DNA from: a phage
Strand: one strand, 5' to 3'
Sequence record: PZ386972.1
DNA length: 64,000 bases
Shown here: piece by piece, positions 21,240-32,352 of the stretch
How positions within the stretch are numbered: the first letter of the stretch is position 1
Layout: every line of letters begins with the position of its first letter
Position numbers and translations under genes: made by a program
Notes under the pieces: model-generated
Told to the model about the DNA's origin: nothing
Database searches by the model: none
Seen by the model: the letters and a program-made list of their open reading frames with translations, nothing else

Positions 21240-22029
21240 TAAATTAGGGAACAGCGAGCCGATTACGCTGAGTGCAGAATCCCAACCGGAGCGCATTGAA
21301 TAGAGTCGGTGGGTTAGTTGTAAAACTAGTACACAGGGGGCGGCAATCCCGGTTAGTGGCTAGAACGTGTAAAATGAGGCGTCTGAAACCTCTCCCCTAA
21401 ACTCTTCTCTGATTTATAAATAGTGGGGTGTGGAAATCACTTATGTAGTAACACTGCCGTCCTAGTATAATTGGTATTATCAAGCCGTAACTGGTGGAAG
21501 ATGTAGGTTCGAATCCTACGGTCGGTAAGAACTGGATAACTGATGCTTTTAACGTAAAAGCTTCCTAGGTTAGTTGCGCACTGCCTAAACCACGCGGTAG
21601 TTGGTTCCAGACTAACCAACCAGTCTGCTGAATAGTTTTATTACGATTTAACTATGTCCAGGCTAAAGAAGAACTTTAGAAGGTATTCTAGGATAGTGAA
21701 GTTCTTTCTCCATATCGGAGTAGTTTTTCAAGCTATCCACAAAGTGGGAAATGCTGACATGAGAGATGTCACTAATGGTGCACAATAGCACAGGTAATTC
21801 GCGATAACTCCTGTTGAGTAGCAGCAAAAGGTGGGAAGTCATGACCCCAAGCCTAACCGAGTCCTCAATATACCGCAGGACATAACCACTAAGTCACCCT
21901 GACTTAAACTGGAAAATAATAGACGTTACTGTATTTTGTCTTGAAATACTTAATGAGTGAGACTTATGACTCTCCCGGTATCGTCTGTATTTTTAAGAGT
22001 TTTTACGAGAGTTCTTAAAAATACTTAAA
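21240..22029 (+). ncRNA. about 790 nt structured non-coding transcript region (candidate stable RNAs)
   Basis: No ORF of 60 aa or more on plus strand; multiple hairpins such as AAGAACTT/AAGTTCTT and TTTTTAAGAGT/GAGTTCTTAAAAA; lies between promoter and first tRNA. Confidence 0.3.
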
Positions 22030-23182: not shown

Positions 23183-23701
23183 ATGGGTGTTGATGAATTA
23201 ACACAGCATCTTCTATCTAGAGGATTTGATGCGGATAAATATCATTGCTGGTTAAGTCCGGAAGGATGGCTAACAGTCCCGTTGTATGATTTCTCTGGGA
23301 TGTTGAGGGGCTATCAAACTTATAATCCTTCTGCTCCAAAAGGTCATGGTAAGTGTCCCTTTGAAGCTAAATATTTTACCTATTCTACTACCCAGTGTGT
23401 ATGGGGATTAGAAACTCTCAATGGAGATGAAAAAGTAGTATTGATCGCTGAATCTGTATTTAAGGCAGTTGCGTTACATAATGCTGGTTATCCAGCCCTA
23501 GCAATGTTGGGTTCTTCTCCAGGAAAAGCGTTATTAAAGCAACTGAAATTATTACCTTTTAAATTGGTAGCTGTCGGGGATAACGATCCTGCGGGTGAAA
23601 AATTTGCTAGAAAATTAAACGGCTTTGTTTCTCCTGTAGATGTGGATGAGATGTCTACAGAAAACTTGAAAAATTTTCTTGCTATGAAGCTAAATTTCTA
23701 A
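23183..23701 (+). CDS. Toprim-domain protein
   Basis: Conserved acidic residues LIAESVFKA and VGDNDPAGEKFA resemble the Toprim E and DxD motifs. Confidence 0.4.
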   Translation: MGVDELTQHLLSRGFDADKYHCWLSPEGWLTVPLYDFSGMLRGYQTYNPSAPKGHGKCPFEAKYFTYSTTQCVWGLETLNGDEKVVLIAESVFKAVALHNAGYPALAMLGSSPGKALLKQLKLLPFKLVAVGDNDPAGEKFARKLNGFVSPVDVDEMSTENLKNFLAMKLNF

Positions 23702-23817: not shown

Positions 23818-23892
23818 GGTTCTCAAGCTCATATGGTATGAGCACCCGGCTCATAACCGGAAGGTACGTAGGTTCGAATCCTCGGGGAGCCA
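23818..23892 (+). tRNA. tRNA with CAT anticodon (Met or Ile2)
   Basis: Acceptor GGTTCTC/GGGAGCC with wobbles, D-arm GCTC...GAGC, anticodon loop CTCATAA, TTCGAAT T-loop (imperfect T stem), CCA encoded. Confidence 0.6.
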
Positions 23893-23914
23893 CCAAATTA
23901 AATAAGGACAACTA

Positions 23915-24400: not shown

Positions 24401-24474
24401 GGGGGTGTAATCGAATTGGCATAGGTACTGGACTTAAAATTCAGGTTTTGTGGGTTCGAATCCCACCACCCCTA
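24401..24474 (+). tRNA. tRNA with TAA anticodon (Leu by anticodon) but class I architecture
   Basis: Acceptor GGGGGTG/CACCCCT, anticodon stem CTGGA/TTCAG, loop CTTAAAA, 5-nt variable loop, T-arm GTGGG-TTCGAAT-CCCAC, CCA encoded; weak D stem. Confidence 0.5.
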
Positions 24475-24652
24475 CCAACTTAAGGAAATAAGATGTATAG
24501 ACATCCACCTCCGCCAACACGTCGTTCTAGAGAAGTTATCCTCATGGAATTGACGAAAAACTTCAAGGCAACTCTTGAAGATAGAGATCTAGGCACGGAT
24601 GAAGACATTGATTTTATTTGTAGACTATTAAAGATGAAACTGGAGAAACAAC

Positions 24653-24859
24653 ATGGCTAATCCTGAAATTACCGCACAACGTTTCATGCTTAAAGGCATG
24701 ATTGCTGAGGCAGGTATGACCCAAGAGGTTGCAGACTTTCATAAGCAATTTCTTGATATTATAACTCTAGCTAAAGAGACAGGAGAAAGAGAACACGGAG
24801 CAGCAATTATGGCTATATCTCTTATTAGCCTAGACTTAGCTGAAGAATCTGGAGTTTAG
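24653..24859 (+). CDS. hypothetical protein
   Basis: ORF track. Confidence 0.4.
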   Translation: MANPEITAQRFMLKGMIAEAGMTQEVADFHKQFLDIITLAKETGEREHGAAIMAISLISLDLAEESGV

Positions 24860-24889
24860 CTCCTCCAAACAGAATTTTTAAAAATGTAC

Positions 24890-24919
24890 TTGCCTTTTGC
24901 TTTAAATTTCTGGTATAAT
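24890..24919 (+). promoter_or_regulatory. T5-type early promoter
   Basis: TTGCCT-18-TATAAT. Confidence 0.55.
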
Positions 24920-24949
24920 AGTTATATAAATTGATGAAGGAGTTAACGA

Positions 24950-25225
24950 ATGCAAAATCGTGTTATAGCAACTGGTATTGAAAGTGCAATCTGTAAATCC
25001 TGGGAAGGCTGGGAAGGTGAGATTGAATGGCTTTATTTCTACGATGTAGAACTTCTGCCGGAAGTTAAAGCTAAATGTGTTGAAGCTGGCATGGCTCCAG
25101 ATGCAAAAGCTGATATTGATATTTCAATGTCTGAACTTAAAGGTCGTGTAATTACTGTTAGTGATGAGGGCGAAGAAGTTTTCGAACTTCCATTCTCCTT
25201 AACTGTCGCTCCTAAGTTCGACTAA
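24950..25225 (+). CDS. hypothetical acidic protein
   Basis: ORF track. Confidence 0.4.
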   Translation: MQNRVIATGIESAICKSWEGWEGEIEWLYFYDVELLPEVKAKCVEAGMAPDAKADIDISMSELKGRVITVSDEGEEVFELPFSLTVAPKFD

Positions 25226-25261
25226 CTAATACAGCACTGAGCAAGTTCTTTAAAATTTGAC

Positions 25262-25290
25262 TTGCTCAGTGCCATAAAACTTGATATAAT
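25262..25290 (+). promoter_or_regulatory. T5-type promoter; its -35 lies in the 3' arm of a long terminator-like inverted repeat
   Basis: CAGCACTGAGCAAG...CTTGCTCAGTGC inverted repeat at about 25232-25273, then TTGCTC-17-TATAAT. Confidence 0.55.
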
Positions 25291-25353
25291 AGTTATCTAA
25301 TTTGGAAACATATCTAAAAGTGTTTAAACTAGTATTTGAATACTTTTAAATAT

Positions 25354-25438
25354 GGGCGTTTATTCCGTAGATGGTAGCGGAGGGGATTGTAAATCCCTGG
25401 TCATTGCGACTCGAGTGGTTCGACTCCATTAACGCCCA
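25354..25438 (+). tRNA. tRNA-Tyr (anticodon GTA), class II
   Basis: Acceptor GGGCGTT/AACGCCC, anticodon loop TTGTAAA, long variable arm, T-arm GTGG-TTCGACT-CCAT, CCA encoded. Confidence 0.8.
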
Positions 25439-25459
25439 CCAAATTTAAAGGTAAAATAT

Positions 25460-25942
25460 ATGTACACTGATAGAATTGTTCAAGAAGCTGCAAACAGAGG
25501 TCTTATTGATCTGGGATCACCAGTTGATATAACTAAAGAGCTAATAACAGAGAGCCTTACGTTTGGCACAGCTAACTTTGGCCGAGATAGTAACCGTCGG
25601 TATAGCTTGAAACTATCAGCATTATCTTTTATTAAGTACAATAAGAGTATTGGAGAAAAATCAAGTTGTGGTTTTATCTACGCGATAACTAATCCAGCTT
25701 GGACTGATTATGTAAAAATTGGCATGTCTTCTGACCCAAAAACAAGATTAGCCAATTACCAGACATATTCTCCACTACGTGACTATAAGTTAATACATTG
25801 GTCATTTTGGTTTAATGCTAGAGAAGCAGAGAAAATGCTTCATAATAGCTTTCCAAAAAGAATTAATGAATGGGTAGTTTTGGACAGAAGTGTAGATGAA
25901 ACACTTGCTGATTTTAATAAACTATCTAATAAACAATTTTAA
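25460..25942 (+). CDS. T5orf172/GIY-YIG-like domain protein (homing-endonuclease-like) embedded in tRNA cluster
   Basis: GFIYAITNPAWTDYVKIGMSSDPKTRLANYQT matches the GIY-YIG-related T5orf172 signature. Confidence 0.5.
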   Translation: MYTDRIVQEAANRGLIDLGSPVDITKELITESLTFGTANFGRDSNRRYSLKLSALSFIKYNKSIGEKSSCGFIYAITNPAWTDYVKIGMSSDPKTRLANYQTYSPLRDYKLIHWSFWFNAREAEKMLHNSFPKRINEWVVLDRSVDETLADFNKLSNKQF

Positions 25943-25943
25943 T

Positions 25944-26015
25944 GCACCTATCATCTATCGGTTAGGACATCAGGTTTTCAACCTGAGAAGCTTGGTTCGA
26001 TTCCGTGTGGGTGTA
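25944..26015 (+). tRNA. tRNA-Glu (anticodon TTC)
   Basis: Acceptor GCACCTA/TGGGTGT, anticodon stem TCAGG/CCTGA, loop TTTTCAA, TTCGATT T-loop, CCA encoded. Confidence 0.7.
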
Positions 26016-26026
26016 CCAAATTCTGC

Positions 26027-26100
26027 ATTCCTAGAGTGTTACTGGACAGCATGTCGGTCTCCAAAACCGTACGGTCTAGGTTCGAGTCCTAGTAGGTTTG
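26027..26100 (+). tRNA. tRNA-Trp (anticodon CCA)
   Basis: Anticodon loop CTCCAAA, T-arm CTAGG-TTCGAGT-CCTAG, CCA encoded; acceptor stem has two U-U mismatches. Confidence 0.55.
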
Positions 26101-26109
26101 CCAAAATTT

Positions 26110-26181
26110 GCACCTTTAGCTGAGATGGATTAGCGCTTGCCTGAAGAGCTTGAGAGGTTCGTTCGATACGAACAGGGTGCA
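26110..26181 (+). tRNA. tRNA-Phe (anticodon GAA), tentative
   Basis: Acceptor GCACCTT/AGGGTGC, loop CTGAAGA, T-arm GTTCG-TTCGATA-CGAAC, CCA encoded; anticodon stem weak. Confidence 0.5.
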
Positions 26182-26201
26182 CCAAATTGAGGGAGCTGCT
26201 G

Positions 26202-26474
26202 ATGCATCCTGAAAACTTCTTTATTTACTGCGCGGATAAGTTGCTGAAACGTAGAATTAACAAAGTCTATCATTATCGTGCTAGTCAACAGCCTTATGTA
26301 TACGCTTTTGACGGTGATCACATCCCATTAGAACAACTATCTTGTGATTACATGATATTGAAGAACTTTGACGAGACAAAGATCTCAAGCGTTCATAATC
26401 GACAGAATCCCTTAACGTGGAAATATAAGAAGAAAAAGAAAGGCATCAAATTCTTAAAAAATGTAGTTGCTTAG
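26202..26474 (+). CDS. hypothetical protein
   Basis: ORF track (TTG 26187); ATG 26202 with GAGGGAG RBS preferred. Confidence 0.4.
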   Translation: MHPENFFIYCADKLLKRRINKVYHYRASQQPYVYAFDGDHIPLEQLSCDYMILKNFDETKISSVHNRQNPLTWKYKKKKKGIKFLKNVVA

Positions 26475-26495
26475 TTTCCAAAAGTTCTGTATAAT
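26467..26495 (+). promoter_or_regulatory. T5-type early promoter
   Basis: TTGCTT-17-TATAAT. Confidence 0.6.
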
Positions 26496-26523
26496 AATTA
26501 CATAAATTGAACTGGAGAAGCAA

Positions 26524-26811
26524 ATGAAACGATTAGTTAGATTTAAGTGTTGTGGTTCTGAACATATTTTCACACATCTTCGTGAATTTAAAATGTGTGA
26601 TTGTGGTAAATCAGGCTATGACTCAGGAGATGGGTTCTACACCCGTACTCTAGGGAACTTCAATGATCTAGAATTTGAAGATCTCGAAAAACAAGAAAAA
26701 GAATTATGTATCTGTTATGAATGTGGTGATCAAGATTACTACTCTAAAACAGGTAAGAAAGTGTGTAGCAATTGTGGTTCCGATCATGTAGCTACACATT
26801 ATGAAAGATAA
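26524..26811 (+). CDS. zinc-ribbon protein with four CxxC pairs
   Basis: CCGSEH, CDCG, CICYECG, CSNCG motifs. Confidence 0.45.
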   Translation: MKRLVRFKCCGSEHIFTHLREFKMCDCGKSGYDSGDGFYTRTLGNFNDLEFEDLEKQEKELCICYECGDQDYYSKTGKKVCSNCGSDHVATHYER

Positions 26812-26816
26812 TAAAC

Positions 26817-26889
26817 CGACCGTTGGCTGAATGGCTTAGGCGAAGGATTGCAAATCCTTTTTATGTGAGTTCAAATCTCATGCGGTCGT
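26817..26889 (+). tRNA. tRNA-Cys (anticodon GCA)
   Basis: Acceptor CGACCGT/GCGGTCG, anticodon stem AAGGA/TCCTT, loop TTGCAAA, T-arm GTGAG-TTCAAAT-CTCAT, CCA encoded. Confidence 0.75.
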
Positions 26890-26892
26890 CCA

Positions 26893-27044
26893 ATTTGCTG
26901 AAAGAATTGTTAAATCAATTCAGGCACGCGTAGGAACACTGTCTCCGTAATTGAAAGATGAGACACGGTTTGGAGAGGTATGCCGCTACACGCTACGGTG
27001 CTAACTCCGTCTAGGTGAAAATCCTAGTCAGCAATATAAATTTA
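26893..27044 (+). ncRNA. about 150 nt structured spacer between tRNA-Cys and tRNA-Asn (candidate small RNA)
   Basis: Hairpins such as GTCTC...GAGAC; no ORF. Confidence 0.25.
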
Positions 27045-27124
27045 GGGTCGTTAGCCAAGCGGTTTGGCGGTGGACTGTTAATCCATGTCGAAAGACAACG
27101 TAGGTTCGAATCCTACACGGCCCG
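27045..27124 (+). tRNA. tRNA with GTT anticodon (Asn) and unusually long 13-nt variable arm
   Basis: Acceptor GGGTCGT/ACGGCCC, D-arm GCCA...TGGC, anticodon stem GTGGA/TCCAT, loop CTGTTAA, variable GTCGAAAGACAAC, TTCGAAT T-loop, CCA encoded. Confidence 0.65.
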
Positions 27125-27229
27125 CCAAATTCTGTGTAGAGTTAAGTAAACCGGTAGCCAACCAGCTATCATTGCTGACATCGAATTCAGCCACAGATAC
27201 CATTTTCATTAATAACTGAGGAAACAAGC

Positions 27230-27415
27230 ATGTCCAAGAATGTAATTGCACAGTTAGAAGTTCATCGTGATAACACAGCTAATAACATTAAGTGCCGACA
27301 AAAAGATATTGAAGCTCAAAAGGCTGATCTTTTAATGAGTATTCGAGAGCTTAATGTACGAAAAGAGTTTCTTAAAGAACTTAATGCAGCTATTGAAAAA
27401 CTCAAAGCTGAGTAA
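27230..27415 (+). CDS. small coiled-coil protein
   Basis: ORF track. Confidence 0.35.
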   Translation: MSKNVIAQLEVHRDNTANNIKCRQKDIEAQKADLLMSIRELNVRKEFLKELNAAIEKLKAE

Positions 27416-27424
27416 ATGAATTAT

Positions 27425-27498
27425 GCGACCGGGGCTGGCTTGGTAATGGTACTCCCCTGTCACGGGAGGGAATGTGGGTTCGAATCCCATCGGTCGCG
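27425..27498 (+). tRNA. tRNA-Asp (anticodon GTC)
   Basis: Acceptor GCGACCG/CGGTCGC, anticodon stem CTCCC/GGGAG, loop CTGTCAC, T-arm GTGGG-TTCGAAT-CCCAT, CCA encoded. Confidence 0.8.
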
Positions 27499-27678
27499 CC
27501 AAATAAGGTAGGTTAGCTATGGAACGTAGGGAGTTTACTCCGGAAGAGATAGAGCAGATAAAAGAATCTGCTATGAAAAATGCTAGAATATCTCTGTCAC
27601 TGGAAGGTATCATTATAAGTGATGTAAACTTTGAAAAAATCAAAGCCATAGCTGATGAACTGGAAAAAGTAATTTAAT

Positions 27679-27751
27679 ACATCCATAGCTCAATGGTTAG
27701 AGCTACCGCCTCTTAAGCGGAGGGTTCTAGGTTCAAGTCCTAGTGGGTGTA
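27679..27751 (+). tRNA. tRNA-Lys (anticodon CTT)
   Basis: Acceptor ACATCCA/TGGGTGT, D-arm GCTC...GAGC, loop CTCTTAA, T-arm CTAGG-TTCAAGT-CCTAG, CCA encoded. Confidence 0.65.
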
Positions 27752-27780
27752 CCAAACTAAACTAGCACGAGAAATATGCT

Positions 27781-28128
27781 ATGATTAATGCTAAAGAAGA
27801 GTTGTTACTTGCCCTAAAGAATACTAAGTCTGAAGTTAAGTGTATTAAGATAGAATTCGGTTATTATGGGAACAAAGAAGTTTGGATATTACCCGTAGGT
27901 TATACAGAAAAAGATATTGAAGATTTTCTAAATAATCTAGACTTCAAATATGATTCTGGTTTCGGTGGACAATTGCTTTACGGTAACGTATGGTTTACTG
28001 ATGGAACTTGGTTAGAGCGTGGTGAATATGATGGTTCTGAATGGTGGGAGTATAAGACTACACCAGCAATCCCAGAAGAATGCCGAACAATTAATGGTGA
28101 AGTAGATCGTACTTTACTATTAAATTAA
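27781..28128 (+). CDS. hypothetical protein
   Basis: ORF track. Confidence 0.45.
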   Translation: MINAKEELLLALKNTKSEVKCIKIEFGYYGNKEVWILPVGYTEKDIEDFLNNLDFKYDSGFGGQLLYGNVWFTDGTWLERGEYDGSEWWEYKTTPAIPEECRTINGEVDRTLLLN

Positions 28129-28250
28129 CAAAATTTCAGTGCAGAACACGGAGCTAGCAATTCGGAAGTGCTGACTCATGATAGGCTGCCTATGTACTTG
28201 CGAAGCGGTCGTGTCCAAGACTCGGACTCTTGCACTGAAAACAATCAAAC

Positions 28251-28368
28251 ATTCTAGCGTGGTTGATGGGGAAACCAGCTTGGCTAGGGCAGAAGCTCGT
28301 TCGATTCGAGTGAAAGAATGGTTCTCGTAAGTCCGCACAAGTGATAACAGGTTCGAGTCCTGTCTAGA
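28251..28368 (+). ncRNA. 118-nt tRNA-like RNA: perfect 7-bp acceptor-like stem and canonical T-arm, no encoded CCA
   Basis: 5' ATTCTAG pairs with 3' CTAGAAT; T-arm ACAGG-TTCGAGT-CCTGT; internal second TTCGATT hairpin. Confidence 0.35.
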
Positions 28369-28383
28369 ATGACACTATAAAGT

Positions 28384-28494
28384 TTACTTATTATGTAGGT
28401 TCCGATAGATCGGCGGGTCTATTCTGGCATTTAAGAGAGGTCTCGCAAACTTCTTTGTCAGCCGTGGGGTTGATAGCCTCCAGGTGGCCTACAC
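28384..28494 (+). ncRNA. about 110-nt structured RNA closed by terminal helix
   Basis: 5' TGTAGGT pairs with 3' GCCTACA; internal hairpins; no ORF. Confidence 0.3.
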
Positions 28495-28520
28495 AATAAG
28501 TAAATTTATTAAAAATTCAT

Positions 28521-28549
28521 TTGCTATTCTGCTTAATTATCTGTATAAT
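28521..28549 (+). promoter_or_regulatory. T5-type early promoter
   Basis: TTGCTA-17-TATAAT. Confidence 0.6.
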
Positions 28550-28579
28550 ATATTTTATAAAGTGAGTTAACAAAATTAA

Positions 28580-28652
28580 CAGTGCGTAGCGCAGTTGGTA
28601 GCGTGGGAGCCTTGGATGCTTCGGGTCGCAGGTTCGAGTCCTGCCGCACTGA
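28580..28652 (+). tRNA. tRNA-Pro (anticodon TGG)
   Basis: Acceptor CAGTGCG/CGCACTG, D-arm GCGC...GCGT, loop CTTGGAT, T-arm GCAGG-TTCGAGT-CCTGC, CCA encoded. Confidence 0.75.
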
Positions 28653-28661
28653 CCAAACAAT

Positions 28662-28736
28662 TGCGGGTTAGATCTCTGGTAGAGATCGCTAGTCTCATAA
28701 GCTAGAAAGAGGTAGGTTCGATTCCTGCACCCGCTT
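28662..28736 (+). tRNA. tRNA with CAT anticodon (Met or Ile2)
   Basis: D-arm GATC...GATC, anticodon stem CTAGT/GCTAG, loop CTCATAA, TTCGATT T-loop, CCA encoded; 1-72 U-U mismatch. Confidence 0.6.
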
Positions 28737-28759
28737 CCATTTTAATAGAGGATTTCGAA

Positions 28760-28927
28760 ATGAAAGTATTTCGATTAGTAGTAAGTGACAAACGTTTAGG
28801 TAAGAATACCTCAAAATCCTTACTTGCTCATTATGGAAAAGATGAGAAAGAAGTAATGGCGGAGTTTGGGATTAATCACCCTTACTTGAAAGTTCACTCT
28901 ATTAAAGAAGTATATAATGGTTACTAA
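28760..28927 (+). CDS. small hypothetical protein (55 aa)
   Basis: ATG with GAGGA RBS between two tRNAs; below track cutoff. Confidence 0.3.
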   Translation: MKVFRLVVSDKRLGKNTSKSLLAHYGKDEKEVMAEFGINHPYLKVHSIKEVYNGY

Positions 28928-28928
28928 T

Positions 28929-29004
28929 AGATCGCTAGCTCAATAGGTTTAGTAGCATCCGACTTTTAATCGGAAGGTTCTGGGTTCGAGTCCCAGGCGA
29001 TCTA
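28929..29004 (+). tRNA. tRNA-Lys (anticodon TTT)
   Basis: Acceptor AGATCGC/GCGATCT, anticodon stem TCCGA/TCGGA, loop CTTTTAA, T-arm CTGGG-TTCGAGT-CCCAG, CCA encoded. Confidence 0.8.
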
Positions 29005-29026
29005 CCAATTTCAAGAAAAACGCAGT

Positions 29027-29054
29027 TGCTTGATGCTTAATTTCTTGTTATAAT
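29027..29054 (+). promoter_or_regulatory. T5-type early promoter
   Basis: TTGCTT-16-TATAAT. Confidence 0.55.
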
Positions 29055-29104
29055 ATTTATATAAATTGATGAGGATTTCTCCTCATCATAGTTCACTAAG
29101 GTAT

Positions 29105-29268
29105 TAGCTCGACCTAGGACTGGCTGCCAAAAAGCACGATCCCTACGATTCGGGAGAAGTTCTAGATTAGTCCACTAGATTCAGCGGCAACTGAATAGTG
29201 TATCGGGTTTGCGAGATGACGCGGTTCCTTCCGCTCGAAGCGAAGGTGCTGTAGTTACGCCGAGCTAA
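29105..29268 (+). ncRNA. about 165-nt structured RNA closed by TAGCTCG/CGAGCTA helix
   Basis: Long-range complementary 7-mers plus internal hairpins; no ORF. Confidence 0.3.
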
Positions 29269-29292
29269 TAGCCTTAGTAAACTAAAGAATTT

Positions 29293-29368
29293 GGGGAATG
29301 GGTCTGCATGGAGTGGACACCTCGCTTGCACCGAGGACATCAGAACGGTTCGATTCCGTTATTCTCCA
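29293..29368 (+). tRNA. tRNA-Ala (anticodon TGC)
   Basis: Acceptor GGGGAAT/ATTCTCC with G3-U70 wobble, anticodon stem CCTCG/CGAGG, loop CTTGCAC, T-arm AACGG-TTCGATT-CCGTT, CCA encoded. Confidence 0.75.
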
Positions 29369-29376
29369 CCAAATAC

Positions 29377-29450
29377 GCGTGATTGATGGAATTGGCATAC
29401 ATACCGTCCTTAGAAGTCGGGTTTTGAGGGTTCGAATCCCTTGTCACGCA
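29377..29450 (+). tRNA. tRNA with TAG anticodon (Leu by anticodon) but class I architecture
   Basis: Acceptor GCGTGAT/GTCACGC, loop CTTAGAA, 5-nt variable loop, T-arm GAGGG-TTCGAAT-CCCTT, discriminator A, CCA encoded; weak D stem. Confidence 0.5.
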
Positions 29451-29453
29451 CCA

Positions 29454-29565
29454 AATTTGATGGTCAGAGTAAATTAAACCTACTATCTCGGTTGAGCTGT
29501 TTTAATGGGTTCGAATCCCAGCGAGGCGTAACTGCCTGGCGTGATAGAGGCATCATCTTATTATT
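29454..29565 (+). ncRNA. about 110-nt segment containing an orphan T-arm-like hairpin (tRNA-like fragment or small RNA)
   Basis: TGGG-TTCGAAT-CCCA hairpin with no matching acceptor stem or CCA; AGGCGTAACTGCCT hairpin. Confidence 0.25.
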
Positions 29566-29653
29566 GGAAGAGCAAATCGAATTGGCGACGAAAACCGCTT
29601 GGAAAGTGGCTGACTGGTAAAACGGCTTGAGAGTTCAAATCTCTCCTCTTCCG
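29566..29653 (+). tRNA. tRNA-Ser (anticodon GGA), class II
   Basis: Acceptor GGAAGAG/CTCTTCC, loop TTGGAAA, long variable arm, T-arm GAGAG-TTCAAAT-CTCTC, CCA encoded. Confidence 0.7.
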
Positions 29654-29668
29654 CCAAACAATTTATAT

Positions 29669-29760
29669 GGTAGGTCAATCCAATGGCTGGCGCTGGACTC
29701 CGACTTGAAATCGGTTGATCGTAGTGATACGGTGTAAGGGTTCGATCCCCTTACCTACCT
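29669..29760 (+). tRNA. tRNA-Ser (anticodon TGA), class II
   Basis: Acceptor GGTAGGT/ACCTACC, loop CTTGAAA, long variable arm, T-arm AAGGG-TTCGATC-CCCTT, CCA encoded. Confidence 0.7.
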
Positions 29761-29764
29761 CCAA

Positions 29765-29910
29765 GTCTTGAAGTATGCCGGAATCGGTAGACGGGGCTGC
29801 CTAAAAGGTTTATAGGGAACATCCACTCCCTACAACATACCTCATAAAGCGGCTGAGATAAATGGTCTATCTCGTGAAGGTTCAAGTCCTTCTGCTTCTT
29901 GATACATCTA
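29765..29910 (+). ncRNA. about 145-nt structured segment with D-arm-like and T-arm-like hairpins but no complete cloverleaf
   Basis: GAGATA-AATGGTC-TATCTC and GAAGG-TTCAAGT-CCTTC hairpins; no CCA. Confidence 0.25.
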
Positions 29911-30014
29911 TGGCTCAAAGTGTAACGGTGCTATTTGATGCTCTTAGTAAGACTTTCCCGACATGCGTTCGGGAGTAAGCTGCTAAGGCTAGAATAGAAG
30001 AGTTTCTGAGAGCC

Positions 30015-30134
30015 GCCACAATTGAAAATTCGTACTCGTCTTGAGCTGCGTGCAATAGGAGATAACTTGATTAGTATTCTAGAACATGCTAATTGAGGAT
30101 GGTTTCGCTAACCCTGCGAGTTTTCAATTGTGGC
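30015..30134 (+). ncRNA. structured element closed by a perfect 14-bp helix whose 3' strand overlaps the 5' end of tRNA-His
   Basis: GCCACAATTGAAAA at about 30015-30028 is the exact reverse complement of TTTTCAATTGTGGC at about 30121-30134. Confidence 0.4.
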
Positions 30135-30203
30135 TATATCATAATTGGTTAATGATCCTGATTGTGAATCAGGCCTATGTGGATTCGAATTCCACTAGCC
30201 ACC
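30130..30203 (+). tRNA. tRNA-His (anticodon GTG)
   Basis: Acceptor GTGGCTA/TAGCCAC, anticodon stem CCTGA/TCAGG, loop TTGTGAA, T-arm GTGGA-TTCGAAT-TCCAC, discriminator C, CCA encoded. Confidence 0.8.
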
Positions 30204-30231
30204 CCAAATTAACTTAAATAGGAAATAAAAT

Positions 30232-30429
30232 ATGGCTGATTTCTGCAAACAATGCTCCATTGATATGTGGGGCAGAGATACTGGTGATCTTTCTGGTTTG
30301 ATTACAGAAGCTGAGGTCAAAGAAGGTTATGGTGCAGTTGTGATTTGCGAAGGATGCGGAGTTATTCGAGTAGATCATGAAGGCAAACGTTTAGAAGAAC
30401 AGGAAAACTTAGGAGAAACAAATGAGTAA
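30232..30429 (+). CDS. small Cys-containing protein
   Basis: ORF track. Confidence 0.4.
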   Translation: MADFCKQCSIDMWGRDTGDLSGLITEAEVKEGYGAVVICEGCGVIRVDHEGKRLEEQENLGETNE

Positions 30430-30658
30430 TGCTTTAATTAGTGAAATTATGTTAACACGTCTTGCAGAACTGCAAACTCTTCGAGATGAATCTCAGAATA
30501 ACTTAGCCTACCATAAACAGATGGTAGATACTCTTACTACTCGTATTGATACTTACGAGCGTGATATTGCAGCATTACAAGCTCTTTTCTCTGTATCAGC
30601 ACCAGATACGTTAGAACAGCCTGCTGTATCTCAGCCAGTAGAAACAGCATCTAGCTAA
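30422..30658 (+). CDS. hypothetical coiled-coil protein
   Basis: ORF track; overlaps upstream stop. Confidence 0.4.
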   Translation: MSNALISEIMLTRLAELQTLRDESQNNLAYHKQMVDTLTTRIDTYERDIAALQALFSVSAPDTLEQPAVSQPVETASS

Positions 30659-30667
30659 TAGCATTCT

Positions 30668-30740
30668 TGGGATGTAGATCAATTGGCAGATCGTCGGCCT
30701 CTGACTCCGAAGGTTCCACGTTCGATCCGTGGCATCCCAG
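30668..30740 (+). tRNA. tRNA-Gln (anticodon CTG)
   Basis: Acceptor TGGGATG/CATCCCA, D-arm GATC...GATC, loop CTCTGAC, T-arm CCACG-TTCGATC-CGTGG, discriminator G, CCA encoded. Confidence 0.7.
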
Positions 30741-30749
30741 CCAAACAAT

Positions 30750-30822
30750 TGGAGAGTAGTGTAACGGTTAGCACAACGGCCTTTGACTCCGTTAATGGTA
30801 GGTTCGATTCCTCCTTCTCCAG
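30750..30822 (+). tRNA. tRNA-Gln (anticodon TTG)
   Basis: Acceptor TGGAGAG/TTCTCCA, loop CTTTGAC, TTCGATT T-loop, discriminator G, CCA encoded. Confidence 0.65.
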
Positions 30823-30833
30823 CCAAGTAATAA

Positions 30834-30906
30834 GCGGTTAAGCACACGGGTTGTGTCGCAGGCCTTCCAAGCCTCGCTGAGTAGGGTTCGATTCCCTCTA
30901 GCCGCT
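30834..30906 (+). tRNA. tRNA-Gly (anticodon TCC)
   Basis: Acceptor GCGGTTA/TAGCCGC, loop CTTCCAA, TTCGATT T-loop, CCA encoded. Confidence 0.6.
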
Positions 30907-30925
30907 CCAACTTTAAGGAAACATT

Positions 30926-31177
30926 ATGCACGTTTTTGAGTTTCGTAATAAAAGTACCGATAAACGAGTTATTGTTATTGGAGAAACATACCGAGCATAC
31001 GAACAAACTGACGGCTCTGTTATCCTAAACGATGAGAAAGGAGGTTTTAGCTTTTATCCAGAAGAACCTTATGAAGAGTTTCGAAAACAATTTAACCTAG
31101 ACTGGAGAAAGCATTTAAACACTGTTGCTTCATCTGTAGTATTGCCAACTACCAGTACTGTACTCTCTAATGGCTGA
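30926..31177 (+). CDS. hypothetical protein
   Basis: ORF track. Confidence 0.4.
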   Translation: MHVFEFRNKSTDKRVIVIGETYRAYEQTDGSVILNDEKGGFSFYPEEPYEEFRKQFNLDWRKHLNTVASSVVLPTTSTVLSNG

Positions 31178-31342
31178 TAACCTAAAAGTCAAGATCGATA
31201 AACAAAAGAAACGTGTAGAAGTAGAGATTGGTGAAGAACGTGTAGCCTTCACCTTTGAATTTCTACAACAAATGGCAATGGCGGTTATGACTGATAAGTC
31301 TCCTGTTATTGAAAAAGAAATCCCGTTGAAATAACGGGTTCT

Positions 31343-31426
31343 GCTGGGTTGGCAGAATGGTTGAATGCACCTGATTTGTAATCAGGAGGAGTAATCCCGT
31401 TGCAGGTTCGAATCCTGTGCCCAGCA
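31343..31426 (+). tRNA. tRNA with TGT anticodon (Thr) and long 15-nt variable arm
   Basis: Acceptor GCTGGGT/GCCCAGC, anticodon stem CCTGA/TCAGG, loop TTTGTAA, T-arm GCAGG-TTCGAAT-CCTGT, CCA encoded. Confidence 0.55.
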
Positions 31427-31611
31427 CCAACTTAAGGACTATTATGTTTAAATTATTAGTAGTTATCTGGTATAGTCAATCAAATAGAGCGAATACCTCC
31501 CACGTTATAGACTTTAATACTAAAAATGAAGCTGAAAAAGCATATTCTAATTTAATAGAACGTAATAAAGAATCTCGTAGTATAGTTTATGAAGTGACTA
31601 AACTTTATTAA
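31417..31611 (+). CDS. small hypothetical protein (track start overlaps tRNA 3' end; true start probably the internal ATG)
   Basis: ORF track. Confidence 0.3.
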   Translation: MPSTNLRTIMFKLLVVIWYSQSNRANTSHVIDFNTKNEAEKAYSNLIERNKESRSIVYEVTKLY

Positions 31612-32179: not shown

Positions 32180-32253
32180 GCTTCGGTAGCTTAGCGATCT
32201 AAAGCACTCGGCTGATAACCGAGAGATCGGGGGTTTAAATCCCTCCCGGAGTA
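32180..32253 (+). tRNA. tRNA-Ile (anticodon GAT) with atypical TTTAAAT T-loop
   Basis: Acceptor GCTTCGG/CCGGAGT, anticodon stem CTCGG/CCGAG, loop CTGATAA, T-arm GGGGG-TTTAAAT-CCCTC, CCA encoded. Confidence 0.7.
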
Positions 32254-32352
32254 CCAAATTTAGGAATTAAGACTATGCGTCCAGGAAAGTTTAAAAAAGC
32301 TAATTGGTCTAAAGAGTATAAAGAATACTTACTTAGTCTAGTAAAACATAAC

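What the first reader, a model, noticed from the sequence alone, without database searches (positions are those of the whole stretch)
24401..31426. Atypical tRNA architectures within the 26-tRNA cluster
Hand folding suggests several non-canonical features: two tRNAs with Leu anticodons (TAA at 24401, TAG at 29377) but short class I variable loops and weak D stems; tRNAs with Asn (GTT, 27045) and Thr (TGT, 31343) anticodons but 13-15-nt variable arms; a tRNA-Ile with TTTAAAT instead of TTCGAAT in the T-loop; U-U mismatches in stems of the Trp and Phe candidates. These may be real phage adaptations (altered identity or resistance to host anticodon nucleases) or folding errors on my part.
Basis: seen in the sequence. 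Interest (0 to 1): 0.5.

Follow-up and report, generated by a model that had tools for sequence, protein, structure and literature searches.

The report
Phage tRNAs with swapped variable arms
This T5-like phage carries working tRNA genes that break the usual shape rules (leucine tRNAs without the long extra arm, asparagine and threonine tRNAs with one), a pattern that is widespread in phages and probably helps the tRNAs escape bacterial enzymes that cut host tRNAs.

Summary
ARAGORN and Rfam reproduce every atypical feature: two 77-nt Leu tRNAs with 5-nt variable loops, an 83-nt Asn(GUU) and an 87-nt Thr(UGU) with 13- and 15-nt variable hairpins, an Ile T-loop TTTAAAT, and U·U mismatches in Trp and Phe. 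They are not folding errors or pseudogenes. All are 100% identical to genes in GenBank AJ604531, whose notes report amber-suppressor activity. The Thr equals the Bas33 Thr(UGU), reported to give strong counter-defence against the P2 OLD tRNase. Phage T5 itself has canonical versions at the same slots, so these are alternative alleles. Each variant belongs to a large cross-family phage group. Variable-arm stems of long-arm Asn and Thr covary and are mostly GNRA-capped. In my sample, 62 of 152 unique phage Leu tRNAs lack the arm, but only 1 of 99 Ser and 2 of 51 Tyr. Identity elements match the anticodons, so altered identity is not favoured, though it is not excluded. The best reading is that the tRNA body was reshaped to evade shape-reading immune nucleases such as PARIS AriB, P2 OLD and PtuAB. 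That step is inferred, not shown. I found no paper that discusses these arms. Verdict: a new variant of a known kind.

The parts
24401..24477 (+). tRNA-Leu(UAA), 77 nt, with no long variable arm (5-nt loop GTTTT at 24445-24449). It has a Leu-type D arm (3-bp stem, loop GAATTGGCATA), A73 and an encoded CCA.
   Evidence: ARAGORN; Rfam 57.4 bits. Identical to tRNAL2 of AJ604531, noted there as an 'effective amber suppressor' after an anticodon swap. At least 95% identical copies occur in 326 phage records.
29377..29453 (+). tRNA-Leu(UAG), 77 nt, with no long variable arm (GTTTT at 29421-29425). It has the same D loop and T arm as the Leu(UAA) paralogue, A73, and a U·U in the anticodon stem.
   Evidence: ARAGORN; Rfam 47.5 bits. 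Identical to the phage 5 / BF23 tRNAL1. Full-length relatives occur in Felixounavirus, Vequintavirinae, and Vibrio and Aeromonas phages, with partial matches in Xanthomonas and Myxococcus phages. T5 has an 85-nt class II Leu(UAG) at this slot.
27045..27127 (+). tRNA-Asn(GUU), 83 nt, with a 13-nt variable hairpin (27087-27099, GTC-GAAA-GAC + AAC), G73, and anticodon arm 3' side U36AAUCC41, the same as E. coli asnT.
   Evidence: ARAGORN; Rfam 59 bits. Identical to tRNAN of AJ604531, noted as an amber suppressor after an anticodon swap. The variable-stem pairs covary in 34 relatives. T5 has a 78-nt class I Asn at this slot.
31343..31429 (+). tRNA-Thr(UGU), 87 nt, with a 15-nt variable hairpin (31387-31401, GGA-GTAA-TCC + CGTT), a Ser-type D arm (3-bp stem, loop GAATGGTTGAA), G1-C72, C2-G71 and A73. 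Its anticodon stem keeps C28UG30/C40AG42 and U36AAUCA41 as in E. coli thrU.
   Evidence: ARAGORN; Rfam 58.9 bits. Identical to Bas33 (HildyBeyeler) Thr and to tRNAT of AJ604531, an 'effective amber suppressor'. The variable stem covaries. E. coli comparison. T5 has a 75-nt class I Thr at this slot.
32180..32256 (+). tRNA-Ile(GAU) with T loop TTTAAAT (32234-32240; U56 instead of C56) and a D loop that has GA instead of G18G19. This is a compensated tertiary pair, A19-U56.
   Evidence: The same arrangement occurs in T5 tRNAI1, which is convertible to an amber suppressor. Across 1523 phage tRNAs, 29 of 34 with U56 have a GA-only D loop, against 1452 of 1475 with C56 that have GG.
26027..26103 (+). 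tRNA-Trp(CCA) with U2·U71 and U3·U70 in the acceptor stem and U27·U43 in the anticodon stem; G73.
   Evidence: ARAGORN drawing; Rfam 36.3 bits. Identical to tRNAW of AJ604531, noted as an amber suppressor after an anticodon swap.
26110..26184 (+). tRNA-Phe(GAA) with U28·U42 and U29·U41 in the anticodon stem.
   Evidence: ARAGORN drawing; Rfam 42.4 bits. Near-identical to T5 tRNA-Phe, whose unusual recognition by PheRS is mentioned in the identity review.
28929..29007 (+). tRNA-Lys(UUU), 79 nt, with an enlarged D loop and U36AAUCG41. It is the third PARIS-target isoacceptor and a different allele from T5 tRNA-Lys.
   Evidence: T5 Lys differs. The PARIS target set is given.
29293..29371 (+). tRNA-Ala(UGC), 79 nt, with a 7-nt variable loop and G3·U70. 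It is the partner of the short Leu(UAG) in a conserved Ala-Leu pair.
   Evidence: The same 79-nt Ala occurs next to the short Leu in Cronobacter phage EspYZU15, and separately in Erwinia phage IT22, whose Leu(tag) is an 85-nt class II form.

Best explanation
These are genuine, expressed, chargeable phage tRNAs that decode the codons their anticodons imply. Their bodies have been rebuilt into phage-specific shapes.

(1) The two Leu tRNAs are class II Leu tRNAs whose long variable arm has been reduced to a 5-nt U-rich loop. They keep every element that E. coli LeuRS uses: A73, A14, the A15-U48 pair, G18G19 in the Leu register, and A20a.

(2) Asn(GUU) and Thr(UGU) combine the acceptor stem, discriminator and anticodon determinants of AsnRS and ThrRS with a class-II-like core. 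That core has a 3-bp D stem, a Ser-type D loop, and a 3-4-bp variable hairpin that is usually GNRA-capped. Trp(CCA) in Erwinia phages uses the same core.

The most likely reason is escape from host immune enzymes that recognise tRNA shape. Thr(UGU), Asn(GUU) and Lys(UUU) are the substrates of OLD-family Toprim tRNases (PARIS AriB, P2 OLD). These cut the anticodon stem at C40|A41 (OLD also cuts after C28), three nucleotides from where the variable arm emerges, and AriB is modelled to contact D-loop U16-U17. The window's Thr and Asn keep the host-like cleavage motif but change the D loop and add the hairpin, which I infer blocks productive binding. For Leu, removing the arm removes a handle used by arm-reading effectors. 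The loss is tolerated only for Leu because LeuRS does not need the arm, whereas SerRS and TyrRS do.

Shown: the architecture, its conservation and covariation, retention of identity elements, in vivo function, and strong OLD counter-defence by this exact Thr sequence. Inferred: that the arm or D loop is what confers resistance, and which enzyme drives arm loss in Leu.
For: **Architecture.**

**Alternative alleles.** T5 carries canonical Thr (75 nt), Asn (78 nt) and Leu(UAG) (85 nt) at the same slots. T5's Thr and Asn have altered 36-41 sequences (UAAGCA, UAAGUU), whereas the window keeps UAAUCA and UAAUCC, as in E. coli thrU and asnT.

**Function.**
- AJ604531 genes are 100% identical. Their notes say the CUA-anticodon forms of Thr, Asn, Leu(UUA) and Trp are amber suppressors.
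- Bas33 Thr is 100% identical to the window Thr.
- Bas33 Thr(UGU) gives strong counter-defence against P2 OLD. T5 Thr rescues only partially and E. coli Thr not at all.
- Bas33 lacks Lys(UUU) but carries the long-arm Thr and a long-arm Asn. It is rescued from PARIS by T5 tRNA-Lys alone.

**Selection for the arm.** IMG/VR holds 115 stretches matching the long-arm Asn pattern and 65 matching the long-arm Thr pattern. All variable-stem pairs change on both sides; for example, Asn columns 48/58 are GC 14, UA 9, AU 8, CG 1. None of 500 shuffles reaches the covariation score. GAAA caps 37 of the Asn arms.

**Identity kept.** 46 of 46 long-arm Thr tRNAs have G1-C72 and C2-G71, and 78 of 80 long-arm Asn tRNAs have G73. 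Leu determinants are present (with the review text).

**Isotype logic.** Unique tRNAs split as Leu 62 short, 3 intermediate and 87 long; Ser 1 short and 98 long; Tyr 2 short, 1 intermediate and 48 long.

[quoted passage not shown] MenT3 uses the tRNA-Ser variable arm as an anchor.

**AriB and OLD specificity.**
Against: - No experiment has deleted or grafted the arm. Resistance could come from the D loop, U32, the 27-43 pair or other positions.
- In the small semi-unbiased sample, long-arm Thr tRNAs keep the paired CNG motif no more often than short-arm ones (3 of 8 against 8 of 20). The arm is therefore not generally a substitute for mutating the motif.
- T4 Thr(UGU), which I recall is class I, also gives strong OLD counter-defence, so an arm is not required.
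- No tRNA-Leu-specific or arm-reading defence against Leu was found in the literature searched.
- My census loci were selected for long-arm Asn or Thr, so their frequencies are biased.
- The AriB-tRNA geometry is itself only an AlphaFold 3 model.
Confidence: 0.55

Rival explanations
1. Historical or neutral remodelling. The odd bodies reflect how phage tRNA genes arise, by recombination of tRNA modules or by anticodon and acceptor shifts from class II ancestors. They are kept only because they fold and are charged. The arm has no adaptive role.
For: Erwinia phage IT22 Trp(CCA) shares its D arm, variable arm and T arm with the window Thr but has a Trp acceptor stem and G73. That points to modular exchange. 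Homing-type nuclease genes sit among the tRNAs. Long arms occur sporadically in many isotypes: Ile 17, Cys 5, Met 5, Trp 4. There is no association between the arm and retention of the cleavage motif.
Against: The hairpin is maintained by compensatory changes and GNRA caps across very divergent phages. A useless 13-15-nt insertion would be expected to decay. Loss of the arm is confined to the one class II isotype whose synthetase ignores it. That pattern shows constraint, but it also implies a recurrent drive to lose the arm. The long-arm Thr outperforms T5's class I Thr against OLD.
Confidence: 0.2
2. Dual or altered identity. The class-II-like body lets an anticodon-independent or arm-binding synthetase (TyrRS, SerRS or LeuRS) charge the Asn- or Thr-anticodon tRNAs, giving mistranslation or a back-up charging route. 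Nematode nev-tRNAs are the precedent.
For: CUA-anticodon versions of the long-arm Thr and Asn suppress amber codons, whereas T5's class I Thr and Asn do not. ThrRS and AsnRS normally depend on the anticodon. The window Asn variable arm (GTC-GAAA-GAC-AAC) resembles the E. coli tRNA-Tyr arm (c-GTC-ACA-GAC-ttc), and its acceptor has G1-C72, G2-C71 and G73, as in tRNA-Ser. nev-tRNAs show that class II tRNAs with foreign anticodons can be leucylated (abstract of PMC3333845).
Against: - Thr: C2-G71 is invariant in 46 of 46, the discriminator is U73 in 26 of 46 (which excludes LeuRS and TyrRS there), and the D loop has the Ser register, not the Leu register.
- Asn: G73 in 78 of 80 excludes LeuRS and TyrRS. 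The stems of 3-4 bp are much shorter than tRNA-Ser arms of 15-22 nt. Acceptor-stem signatures are the same in long- and short-arm Asn.
- Strong rescue of ACA decoding and near-wild-type plaques with Bas33 Thr would be unlikely if the tRNA inserted the wrong amino acid.
- Amber suppressors are commonly mischarged by GlnRS or LysRS through U35 (my own knowledge), so the suppression says little about the native tRNA.
Confidence: 0.1
3. The arm is a handle for a phage factor rather than a shield. It might serve a phage-encoded processing or modification enzyme, or a protective binding protein, or it might act as a processing or stability signal in the polycistronic tRNA transcripts.
For: A small Toprim-domain protein (23183-23701) and many small ORFs of unknown function are interleaved with the tRNAs. 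GNRA tetraloops are classic docking modules (my own knowledge). Recurrent CAGAT(A/T)A motifs occur in very long variable regions of other phage tRNAs.
Against: The same long-arm tRNAs work when expressed alone from plasmids in uninfected or heterologously infected E. coli. The families span unrelated phage groups that share few accessory genes.
Confidence: 0.1
4. Artefact: mis-folded predictions or decaying pseudogenes.
For: Several tRNAs in the cluster have mismatched stems and low scores, for example Trp at 36.3 bits.
Against: Two independent predictors agree. CCA is encoded, the genes are 100% conserved in dozens of phages, the stems covary, and function is documented.
Confidence: 0.02

Closest known systems
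Phage T5 counter-defence tRNAs: Lys(UUU), Thr(UGU) and Asn(GUU) against PARIS AriB, and phage Thr(UGU) against P2 OLD
   Same: Same isoacceptors, same syntenic slots in a T5-like genome, and the same presumed role of replacing cleaved host tRNAs. The window's Thr sequence has itself been used, as Bas33 Thr, and rescues from OLD.
   Different: Published resistance determinants are substitutions at or near the cleavage site, U16C in the D loop, an altered CNG motif and a shorter anticodon stem. The window's Thr and Asn keep the host-like motif and a full 5-bp stem, and instead carry a class-II-like core with a variable hairpin. None of these papers uses the word 'variable' for Thr or Asn.
T5 tRNA-Tyr resisting PtuAB (retron-Eco7 / Septu)
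   Same: The variable arm of a phage tRNA is the feature that determines nuclease escape.
   Different: In that case a class II tRNA keeps its arm with a changed sequence. Here an arm is deleted (Leu) or present in normally class I isotypes (Asn, Thr).
Arm-less tRNA-Leu: animal mitochondrial tRNA-Leu and engineered E. coli tRNA-Leu minimal substrates
   Same: A tRNA-Leu without the long arm is still leucylated through A73 and D/T-loop tertiary elements.
   Different: [quoted passage not shown] The phage genes are natural, work in a bacterial cytoplasm, and retain the bacterial Leu-type D arm.
nev-tRNAs: nematode class II tRNAs with Gly or Ile anticodons (PMC3333845)
   Same: A long variable arm combined with an anticodon that is not Leu, Ser or Tyr.
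   Different: nev-tRNAs are tRNA-Leu bodies that are leucylated and so decode differently. The phage tRNAs carry the acceptor and discriminator determinants of the anticodon's own amino acid.
allo-tRNAs (Mukai et al. 2017, PMC5389517)
   Same: Non-canonical tRNAs with long variable arms and diverse anticodons, some of them in phages (abstract).
   Different: allo-tRNAs have 8/4 or 9/3 acceptor/T branches. The window tRNAs have the canonical 7/5 arrangement.

Membership tests
tRNA (Rfam RF00005) | A full-length match to the tRNA covariance model above the gathering score, with a cloverleaf of 7-bp acceptor stem and 5-bp T stem. | tested here: met
   Leu(taa) 57.4, Leu(tag) 47.5, Asn 59.0 and Thr 58.9 bits against a gathering score of 29, all matching model positions 1-71. 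ARAGORN cloverleaves.
Class II (long-arm) tRNA | A variable region of 10 nt or more that forms a stem-loop, with a 3-bp D stem. | tested here: met
   Met for Asn (13 nt) and Thr (15 nt, 3-bp D stem). The stems covary. Not met for the two Leu tRNAs, which have 5-nt loops.
Class II (long-arm) tRNA | In bacteria the class is restricted to the Leu, Ser and Tyr isotypes. | tested here: not met
   The anticodons are GUU (Asn) and UGU (Thr), and the discriminator and acceptor stem match Asn and Thr. Conversely, the Leu tRNAs here are not class II.
E. coli tRNA-Leu identity set | A73, A14, the A15-U48 Levitt pair, G18G19 in the Leu register, and A20a. The long arm is not required. | tested here: met
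   Both Leu tRNAs have D loop G13-A14-A15-U16-U17-G18-G19-C20-A20a, variable loop GUUUU (U48) and A73. The determinant list comes from the review. Charging by LeuRS was not tested here. The GenBank note records an effective amber suppressor.
E. coli tRNA-Thr identity set | G1-C72, C2-G71, and anticodon G35 and U36. | tested here: met
   The window Thr begins GC...GC and has anticodon UGU. 46 of 46 long-arm relatives have G1-C72 and C2-G71. The charged amino acid was not tested.
Bacterial tRNA-Asn identity set | Anticodon G34-U35-U36 plus discriminator G73. | tested here: met
   The window Asn has GUU and G73. 78 of 80 long-arm relatives have G73.
allo-tRNA | A 12-bp acceptor branch arranged 8/4 or 9/3. 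| tested here: not met
   The arrangement is 7/5 in all four tRNAs.
Nuclease-resistant phage 'rescue' tRNAs (PARIS / P2 OLD) | Functional rescue of cells or phages from the tRNase. | not testable with these tools
   From the literature only. Bas33 Thr(UGU), identical to the window Thr, gives strong counter-defence against P2 OLD. Bas33 needs only an added Lys(UUU) to escape PARIS. The window's 83-nt Asn allele has not been tested. The Bas33 Asn is the related 86-nt allele.
Nuclease-resistant phage 'rescue' tRNAs (PARIS / P2 OLD) | The published resistance determinants: substitutions in U36AAUC|A41, loss of the paired CNG motif, a shortened anticodon stem, or U16C. | tested here: not met
   Thr has U36AAUCA41, C28UG30/C40AG42 and a 5-bp stem, all as in thrU, and has U16. 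Asn has UAAUCC as in asnT, but it does have C16.

The most novel reading that the evidence does not exclude
Gain and loss of the variable arm is a general, shape-based immune-evasion strategy of phage tRNAs. A portable class-II-like core (Ser-type D arm plus a short GNRA-capped hairpin) is combined with the acceptor and anticodon modules of nuclease-targeted isoacceptors: Thr UGU, Asn GUU, Trp CCA, and sporadically Cys, Ile, Met and Lys. This shields the anticodon-stem cleavage site and alters the D-loop contact used by OLD-family Toprim tRNases. In the other direction, tRNA-Leu sheds its arm to escape effectors that read the arm. Which isotypes can do which is set by whether their synthetase tolerates the change.
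Probability: 0.35. Interest if true: 0.8.

Novelty: new variant of a known kind. Interest (0 to 1): 0.62.

Why it matters
Textbooks and a 2023 identity review state that tRNA-Leu always carries the long arm outside animal mitochondria, and that long arms belong to Leu, Ser and Tyr. Phages break both rules, often and in an orderly way.

If the reshaped body is what defeats PARIS- and OLD-type tRNases, three things follow.
- It explains why a Thr tRNA with an intact cleavage motif protects better than T5's mutated one.
- It gives a simple design rule for nuclease-proof tRNAs, useful for phage therapy and for orthogonal translation.
- It offers a marker for predicting which host defences a phage can bypass.

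The work also shows that automated isotype or 'pseudogene' flags on phage tRNAs should not be trusted when the class does not match the anticodon.

Tried and rejected
- BLAST of the Thr and Asn tRNAs against 5,426 E. coli genomes, meant as an isotype test, gave no match or only E-values near 1 to tRNA-Lys. It was uninformative because of database size. I fetched real K-12 tRNAs instead.
- Supplementary tables of the PARIS and P2-OLD papers are not held, so I could not see whether the 245-tRNA library contained these sequences.
- I tried to identify Bas32, whose Thr tRNA is shown intact on a northern blot. DaisyDussoix is bas31, TrudiRoth is bas30 and IrmaTschudi is bas28, and all three carry 75-nt Thr genes. 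Bas32 was not found.
- The DARNA preprint and a search for defences that target tRNA-Leu gave no candidate driver for arm loss in Leu.
- MAFFT mis-registers the 5' acceptor strand, so I counted pairs only for the anticodon, variable and T helices, whose columns I checked by hand.
- I tested whether the arm replaces motif mutation. There was no association in the small semi-unbiased sample.
- Pseudogene or folding-error explanations were rejected.
- The PrrC and colicin explanation was not pursued further. Those enzymes cut in the anticodon loop of Lys, or of Tyr, His, Asn and Asp, and nothing ties them to the variable arm.

Full report
**1. What the window is**

The 8.5 kb around the finding matches about 650 T5-like phage records (Demerecviridae). 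The best hit is Salmonella phage SCF at 98.7%, followed by Escherichia phage slur09 at 96%. The tRNA cluster lies on the + strand between about 21.4 and 32.4 kb.

**2. Check of the observation**

ARAGORN finds 22 tRNAs at default settings.

Every claimed oddity is reproduced:
- Leu(taa) at 24401-24477 and Leu(tag) at 29377-29453 are 77 nt long. Each has a 5-nt variable loop GTTTT and a 3-bp D stem.
- Asn(gtt) at 27045-27127 is 83 nt long, with a variable hairpin GTC-GAAA-GAC-AAC.
- Thr(tgt) at 31343-31429 is 87 nt long, with a variable hairpin A-GGA-GTAA-TCC-CGTT.
- Ile(gat) has the T loop TTTAAAT.
- Trp has U2·U71 and U3·U70.
- Phe has U28·U42 and U29·U41.

The four main tRNAs are among the better Rfam matches in the cluster, at 47.5-59 bits against a threshold of 29. 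All encode CCA.

**3. They are alternative alleles, not the T5 genes**

Phage T5 (NC_005859) has canonical genes at the same syntenic slots: Thr(UGU) 75 nt, Asn(GUU) 78 nt, and Leu(UAG) 85 nt with a 13-nt arm. It has no Leu(UAA).

The window's versions are common among T5-like phages:
- the 87-nt Thr occurs in 100 phage records;
- the Asn occurs at 90% identity or more in 285 records;
- Leu(taa) occurs at 95% or more in 326 records;
- Leu(tag) occurs at 95% or more in 162 records.

**4. They function**

GenBank AJ604531 ('Bacteriophage 5 tRNA gene region') contains Thr, Asn, both Leu, Trp, Phe and Ile genes 100% identical to the window's. Its feature notes describe what happens when the anticodon is replaced with CUA:
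- the Thr becomes an 'effective amber suppressor';
- the Asn becomes an amber suppressor;
- the Leu(UUA) becomes an 'effective' suppressor;
- the Trp becomes a suppressor.

The T5 record says its class I Thr and Asn cannot be converted in this way.

The BASEL phage Bas33 (HildyBeyeler) carries a Thr gene identical to the window's, a related 86-nt long-arm Asn, and both short Leu genes. It has no Lys(UUU).

Two published results therefore bear on this exact Thr sequence.
- Bas33 is PARIS-sensitive and is rescued by adding T5 tRNA-Lys(UUU) alone (Belukhina et al. 2025).
- Bas33 Thr(UGU), expressed from a plasmid, gives strong counter-defence against the P2 OLD tRNase. T5 Thr rescues only partially, and E. 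coli Thr not at all (bioRxiv 10.64898/2026.07.10.737580).

**5. Each oddity is a member of a broad phage family**

*Short Leu.* Full-length short relatives occur in Felixounavirus, Vequintavirinae, Vibrio Demerecviridae and Aeromonas phage Ah1. A record labelled as a Synechococcus phage also carries short Leu genes. Xanthomonas and Myxococcus phages give partial BLAST matches but carry 74-77-nt annotated Leu genes with 3-5-nt variable loops. All keep A73, U8-G9/A9, a 3-bp D stem, a D loop of the form GGAATTGGYAKAC, and a loop RUUUU. This is the E. coli Leu-type D arm (leuQ and leuZ). It supplies every LeuRS determinant listed in the identity review: A73, the A15-U48 pair, G18G19 and A20a. According to that review the long arm is not required.

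*Long-arm Asn.* Relatives of 82-86 nt occur in T5-like phages and in T4-like Klebsiella and Erwinia phages. They often lie directly after Lys(UUU). Further BLAST matches of the same length lie in Enterobacter, Pectobacterium and Raoultella phages.

*Long-arm Thr.* Relatives occur in Aeromonas phage Ah1 and in the record labelled as a Synechococcus phage. In Erwinia phage IT22 the same D arm, variable arm and T arm carry a Trp acceptor stem, G73 and anticodon CCA.

*IMG/VR scans.* Exact-pattern scans returned 115 stretches for long-arm Asn and 65 for long-arm Thr, from contigs of 5 to 476 kb.

**6. Evidence that the arms are selected structures**

Across 67 distinct Asn arms and 43 distinct Thr arms, the stems have many different sequences but stay complementary. 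Most are capped by GNRA loops; GAAA caps 37 of the Asn arms.

Formal pair counts support this.
- Asn (34 sequences): all four variable-stem pairs change on both sides. Columns 48/58 are GC 14, UA 9, AU 8, CG 1, with 1 unpaired. Columns 49/57 are CG 15, GC 8, UA 7, AU 2, with 0 unpaired.
- Thr (25 sequences, plus the IT22 Trp): all three pairs change on both sides.
- In both sets, none of 500 shuffles reaches the observed covariation score, and versions with slid partners collapse to 30-48% paired.

**7. Identity**

- All 46 long-arm Thr sequences have G1-C72 and C2-G71, which are ThrRS determinants. The discriminator is A or U.
- 78 of 80 long-arm Asn sequences have G73.
- The acceptor-stem signatures of long-arm and short-arm Asn are the same (determinants).
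- The Thr D loop (GAATGGTTGAA) has the Ser-type register (E. coli serU GAGCGGCTGAA), not the Leu register. C2-G71 and A73 argue against SerRS.

The anticodon-implied identities are therefore the most likely. The residual doubt comes from the suppressor notes. A CUA anticodon removes the main ThrRS and AsnRS determinants, yet the long-arm versions still suppress. Some synthetase must therefore charge the CUA derivatives. Candidates include TyrRS (the Asn arm resembles the tRNA-Tyr arm), and GlnRS or LysRS acting through U35 (my own knowledge).

**8. Isotype logic**

The census covers 1,523 well-paired unique tRNAs from 199 sequences: the window, the record-derived loci and the IMG/VR stretches. 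The IMG/VR stretches were chosen for long-arm Asn or Thr, and loci L012-L019 were fetched as relatives of the short Leu. The remaining loci are unselected with respect to Leu, Ser and Tyr.

| Isotype | Short (6 nt or less) | Intermediate (7-9 nt) | Long (10 nt or more) |
|---|---|---|---|
| Leu | 62 | 3 | 87 |
| Ser | 1 | 0 | 98 |
| Tyr | 2 | 1 | 48 |

Arm loss is confined to the one class II isotype whose synthetase ignores the arm.

Long arms occur in 8 of 28 Thr(UGU) in loci selected for Asn, and in 3 of 15 Asn in loci selected for Thr. They occur in 0 of 21 Thr(CGU/GGU) and in 2 of 54 Lys(UUU).

**9. Mechanistic reading**

PARIS AriB cuts E. coli Lys(UUU), Thr(UGU) and Asn(GUU) between positions 40 and 41, in the motif U36AAUC|A/C41. 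In an AlphaFold 3 model its second subunit contacts D-loop U16-U17. P2 OLD cuts after C28 and after C40 of a paired CNG motif. It prefers thrU and also cleaves Lys(UUU), Asn(GUU) and Val(UAC).

Published resistant phage tRNAs carry changes at the site or a shortened stem. T5's Thr (UAAGCA) and Asn (UAAGUU) fit that pattern. The window's Thr keeps C28UG30/C40AG42 and UAAUCA, and its Asn keeps UAAUCC, exactly as in thrU and asnT. Even so, this Thr protects against OLD better than T5's does. Overexpressed E. coli thrU does not protect, so supply alone is not enough.

What differs from thrU is the class-II-like D arm, the hairpin that starts three nucleotides after the scissile bond, U32, and the 27-43 pair. 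I infer that the reshaped core hinders productive binding.

There is precedent for the variable arm as a target. PtuAB cuts the tRNA-Tyr arm, and T5 tRNA-Tyr escapes through its distinctive arm. MenT3 anchors on the tRNA-Ser arm. These precedents make arm loss in Leu a plausible escape route, but I found no enzyme that targets Leu.

**10. Caveats**

- There is no direct test of the arm.
- In the small semi-unbiased sample, having the arm is not associated with keeping the cleavage motif.
- T4 Thr also protects; I recall it is class I, so an arm is not required.
- The census is biased for Asn and Thr.

**11. Minor items in the finding**

The Ile T loop TTTAAAT is a compensated tertiary pair. 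U56 goes with a GA-only D loop (A19) in 29 of 34 phage tRNAs, whereas 1452 of 1475 tRNAs with C56 have GG. T5 has the same Ile, and it can be converted to a suppressor.

The Phe and Trp mismatches are real. The Phe differs from T5 tRNA-Phe only in the T loop. T5 tRNA-Phe is known for unusual PheRS recognition. The Trp is functional as a suppressor.

**12. Novelty**

The sequences have been public since 2004 and are routinely annotated. In eight full-text searches, and in the key papers on phage tRNAs and on PARIS, OLD, retron and Schlafen defences, I found no discussion of arm-less phage tRNA-Leu or of long-arm Asn, Thr or Trp. The word 'variable' is absent from the main texts of the PARIS and OLD papers. 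The older Russian T5/BF23 literature is not in the library, so a prior remark there cannot be excluded.

Noticed in passing
window 23183-23701 (+): A 172-aa ORF with a stand-alone Toprim domain (Pfam Toprim_2, E = 2e-5) sits directly upstream of tRNA-Ser(gct). In T5 it is annotated as 'DNA primase' (T5.076). The tRNases that attack these tRNAs (AriB, OLD) and RNase M5 are Toprim enzymes, so a role in RNA processing or as a decoy is worth testing.
   Followed up: partly
window 25460-25942 (+): A 160-aa ORF with a T5orf172/MUG113 domain (E about 1e-8) lies between tRNA-Tyr and tRNA-Glu. T5 and its relatives have HNH homing endonucleases at other slots in the cluster. Such mobile nucleases could drive the allele swapping seen between T5-like phages.
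   Followed up: partly
window 21455-21528, 23818-23895, 29669-29763, 30834-30909; also 28130-28500 and 29454-30100: These are low-scoring or tRNA-like elements. They include a tRNA hit with an odd anticodon loop (21455), the CAU tRNA annotated in T5 as Ile2 (23818), Ser(tga) and Gly(tcc) found only at low threshold, and stretches that correspond to T5's 'stable RNAs with unknown functions' (RNA1, RNA2, RNAI, RNAIII, RNA2H).
   Followed up: partly
window 28929-29007: tRNA-Lys(UUU) is 79 nt long with an enlarged D loop and U36AAUCG41. This differs from the characterised PARIS-resistant T5 tRNA-Lys (UAAACC). The near-identical phage 5 gene is noted as not convertible to an amber suppressor. Whether this allele resists AriB is unknown.
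   Followed up: partly
window 29293-29371; L003 4466-4544; L012 63-141: tRNA-Ala(UGC) is 79 nt long with a 7-nt variable loop and G3·U70. Nearly the same gene occurs in Erwinia phage IT22 and, next to the short Leu, in Cronobacter phage EspYZU15. This suggests horizontal transfer of the gene and, with EspYZU15, of an Ala-Leu gene pair.
   Followed up: partly
L003 7992-8078 (Erwinia phage IT22); L057 4387; L109 8187: tRNA-Trp(CCA) genes of 87 nt have the same D arm, variable hairpin and T arm as the window's long-arm Thr, but a Trp acceptor stem (A1-U72, G2, G3) and G73. This looks like a shared scaffold carrying swapped identity modules.
   Followed up: partly
L032 5224, L035 313, L056 7444, L099 5943, L111 12394, L155 3629 (Ile UAU); L028 4473 (Met); L051 12820 (Pro): Some phage tRNAs have very long variable regions (17-27 nt) that share a CAGAT(A/T)A motif, mostly in Ile(UAU). 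This is a different kind of insertion from the short GNRA hairpins, and its nature is unknown.
   Followed up: no
L006, L009, L010, L011 (T4-like Klebsiella and Erwinia phages): Lys(UUU) is immediately followed by a long-arm Asn(GUU) in several unrelated large phages. Two PARIS/OLD target isoacceptors are thus kept as a unit.
   Followed up: no
L005 8601-8676 (record labelled Synechococcus phage BUCT-ZZ01): ARAGORN calls a tRNA with a CUA anticodon, a possible amber suppressor, in the same tRNA-rich region that carries the long-arm Thr and three short Leu tRNAs.
   Followed up: no
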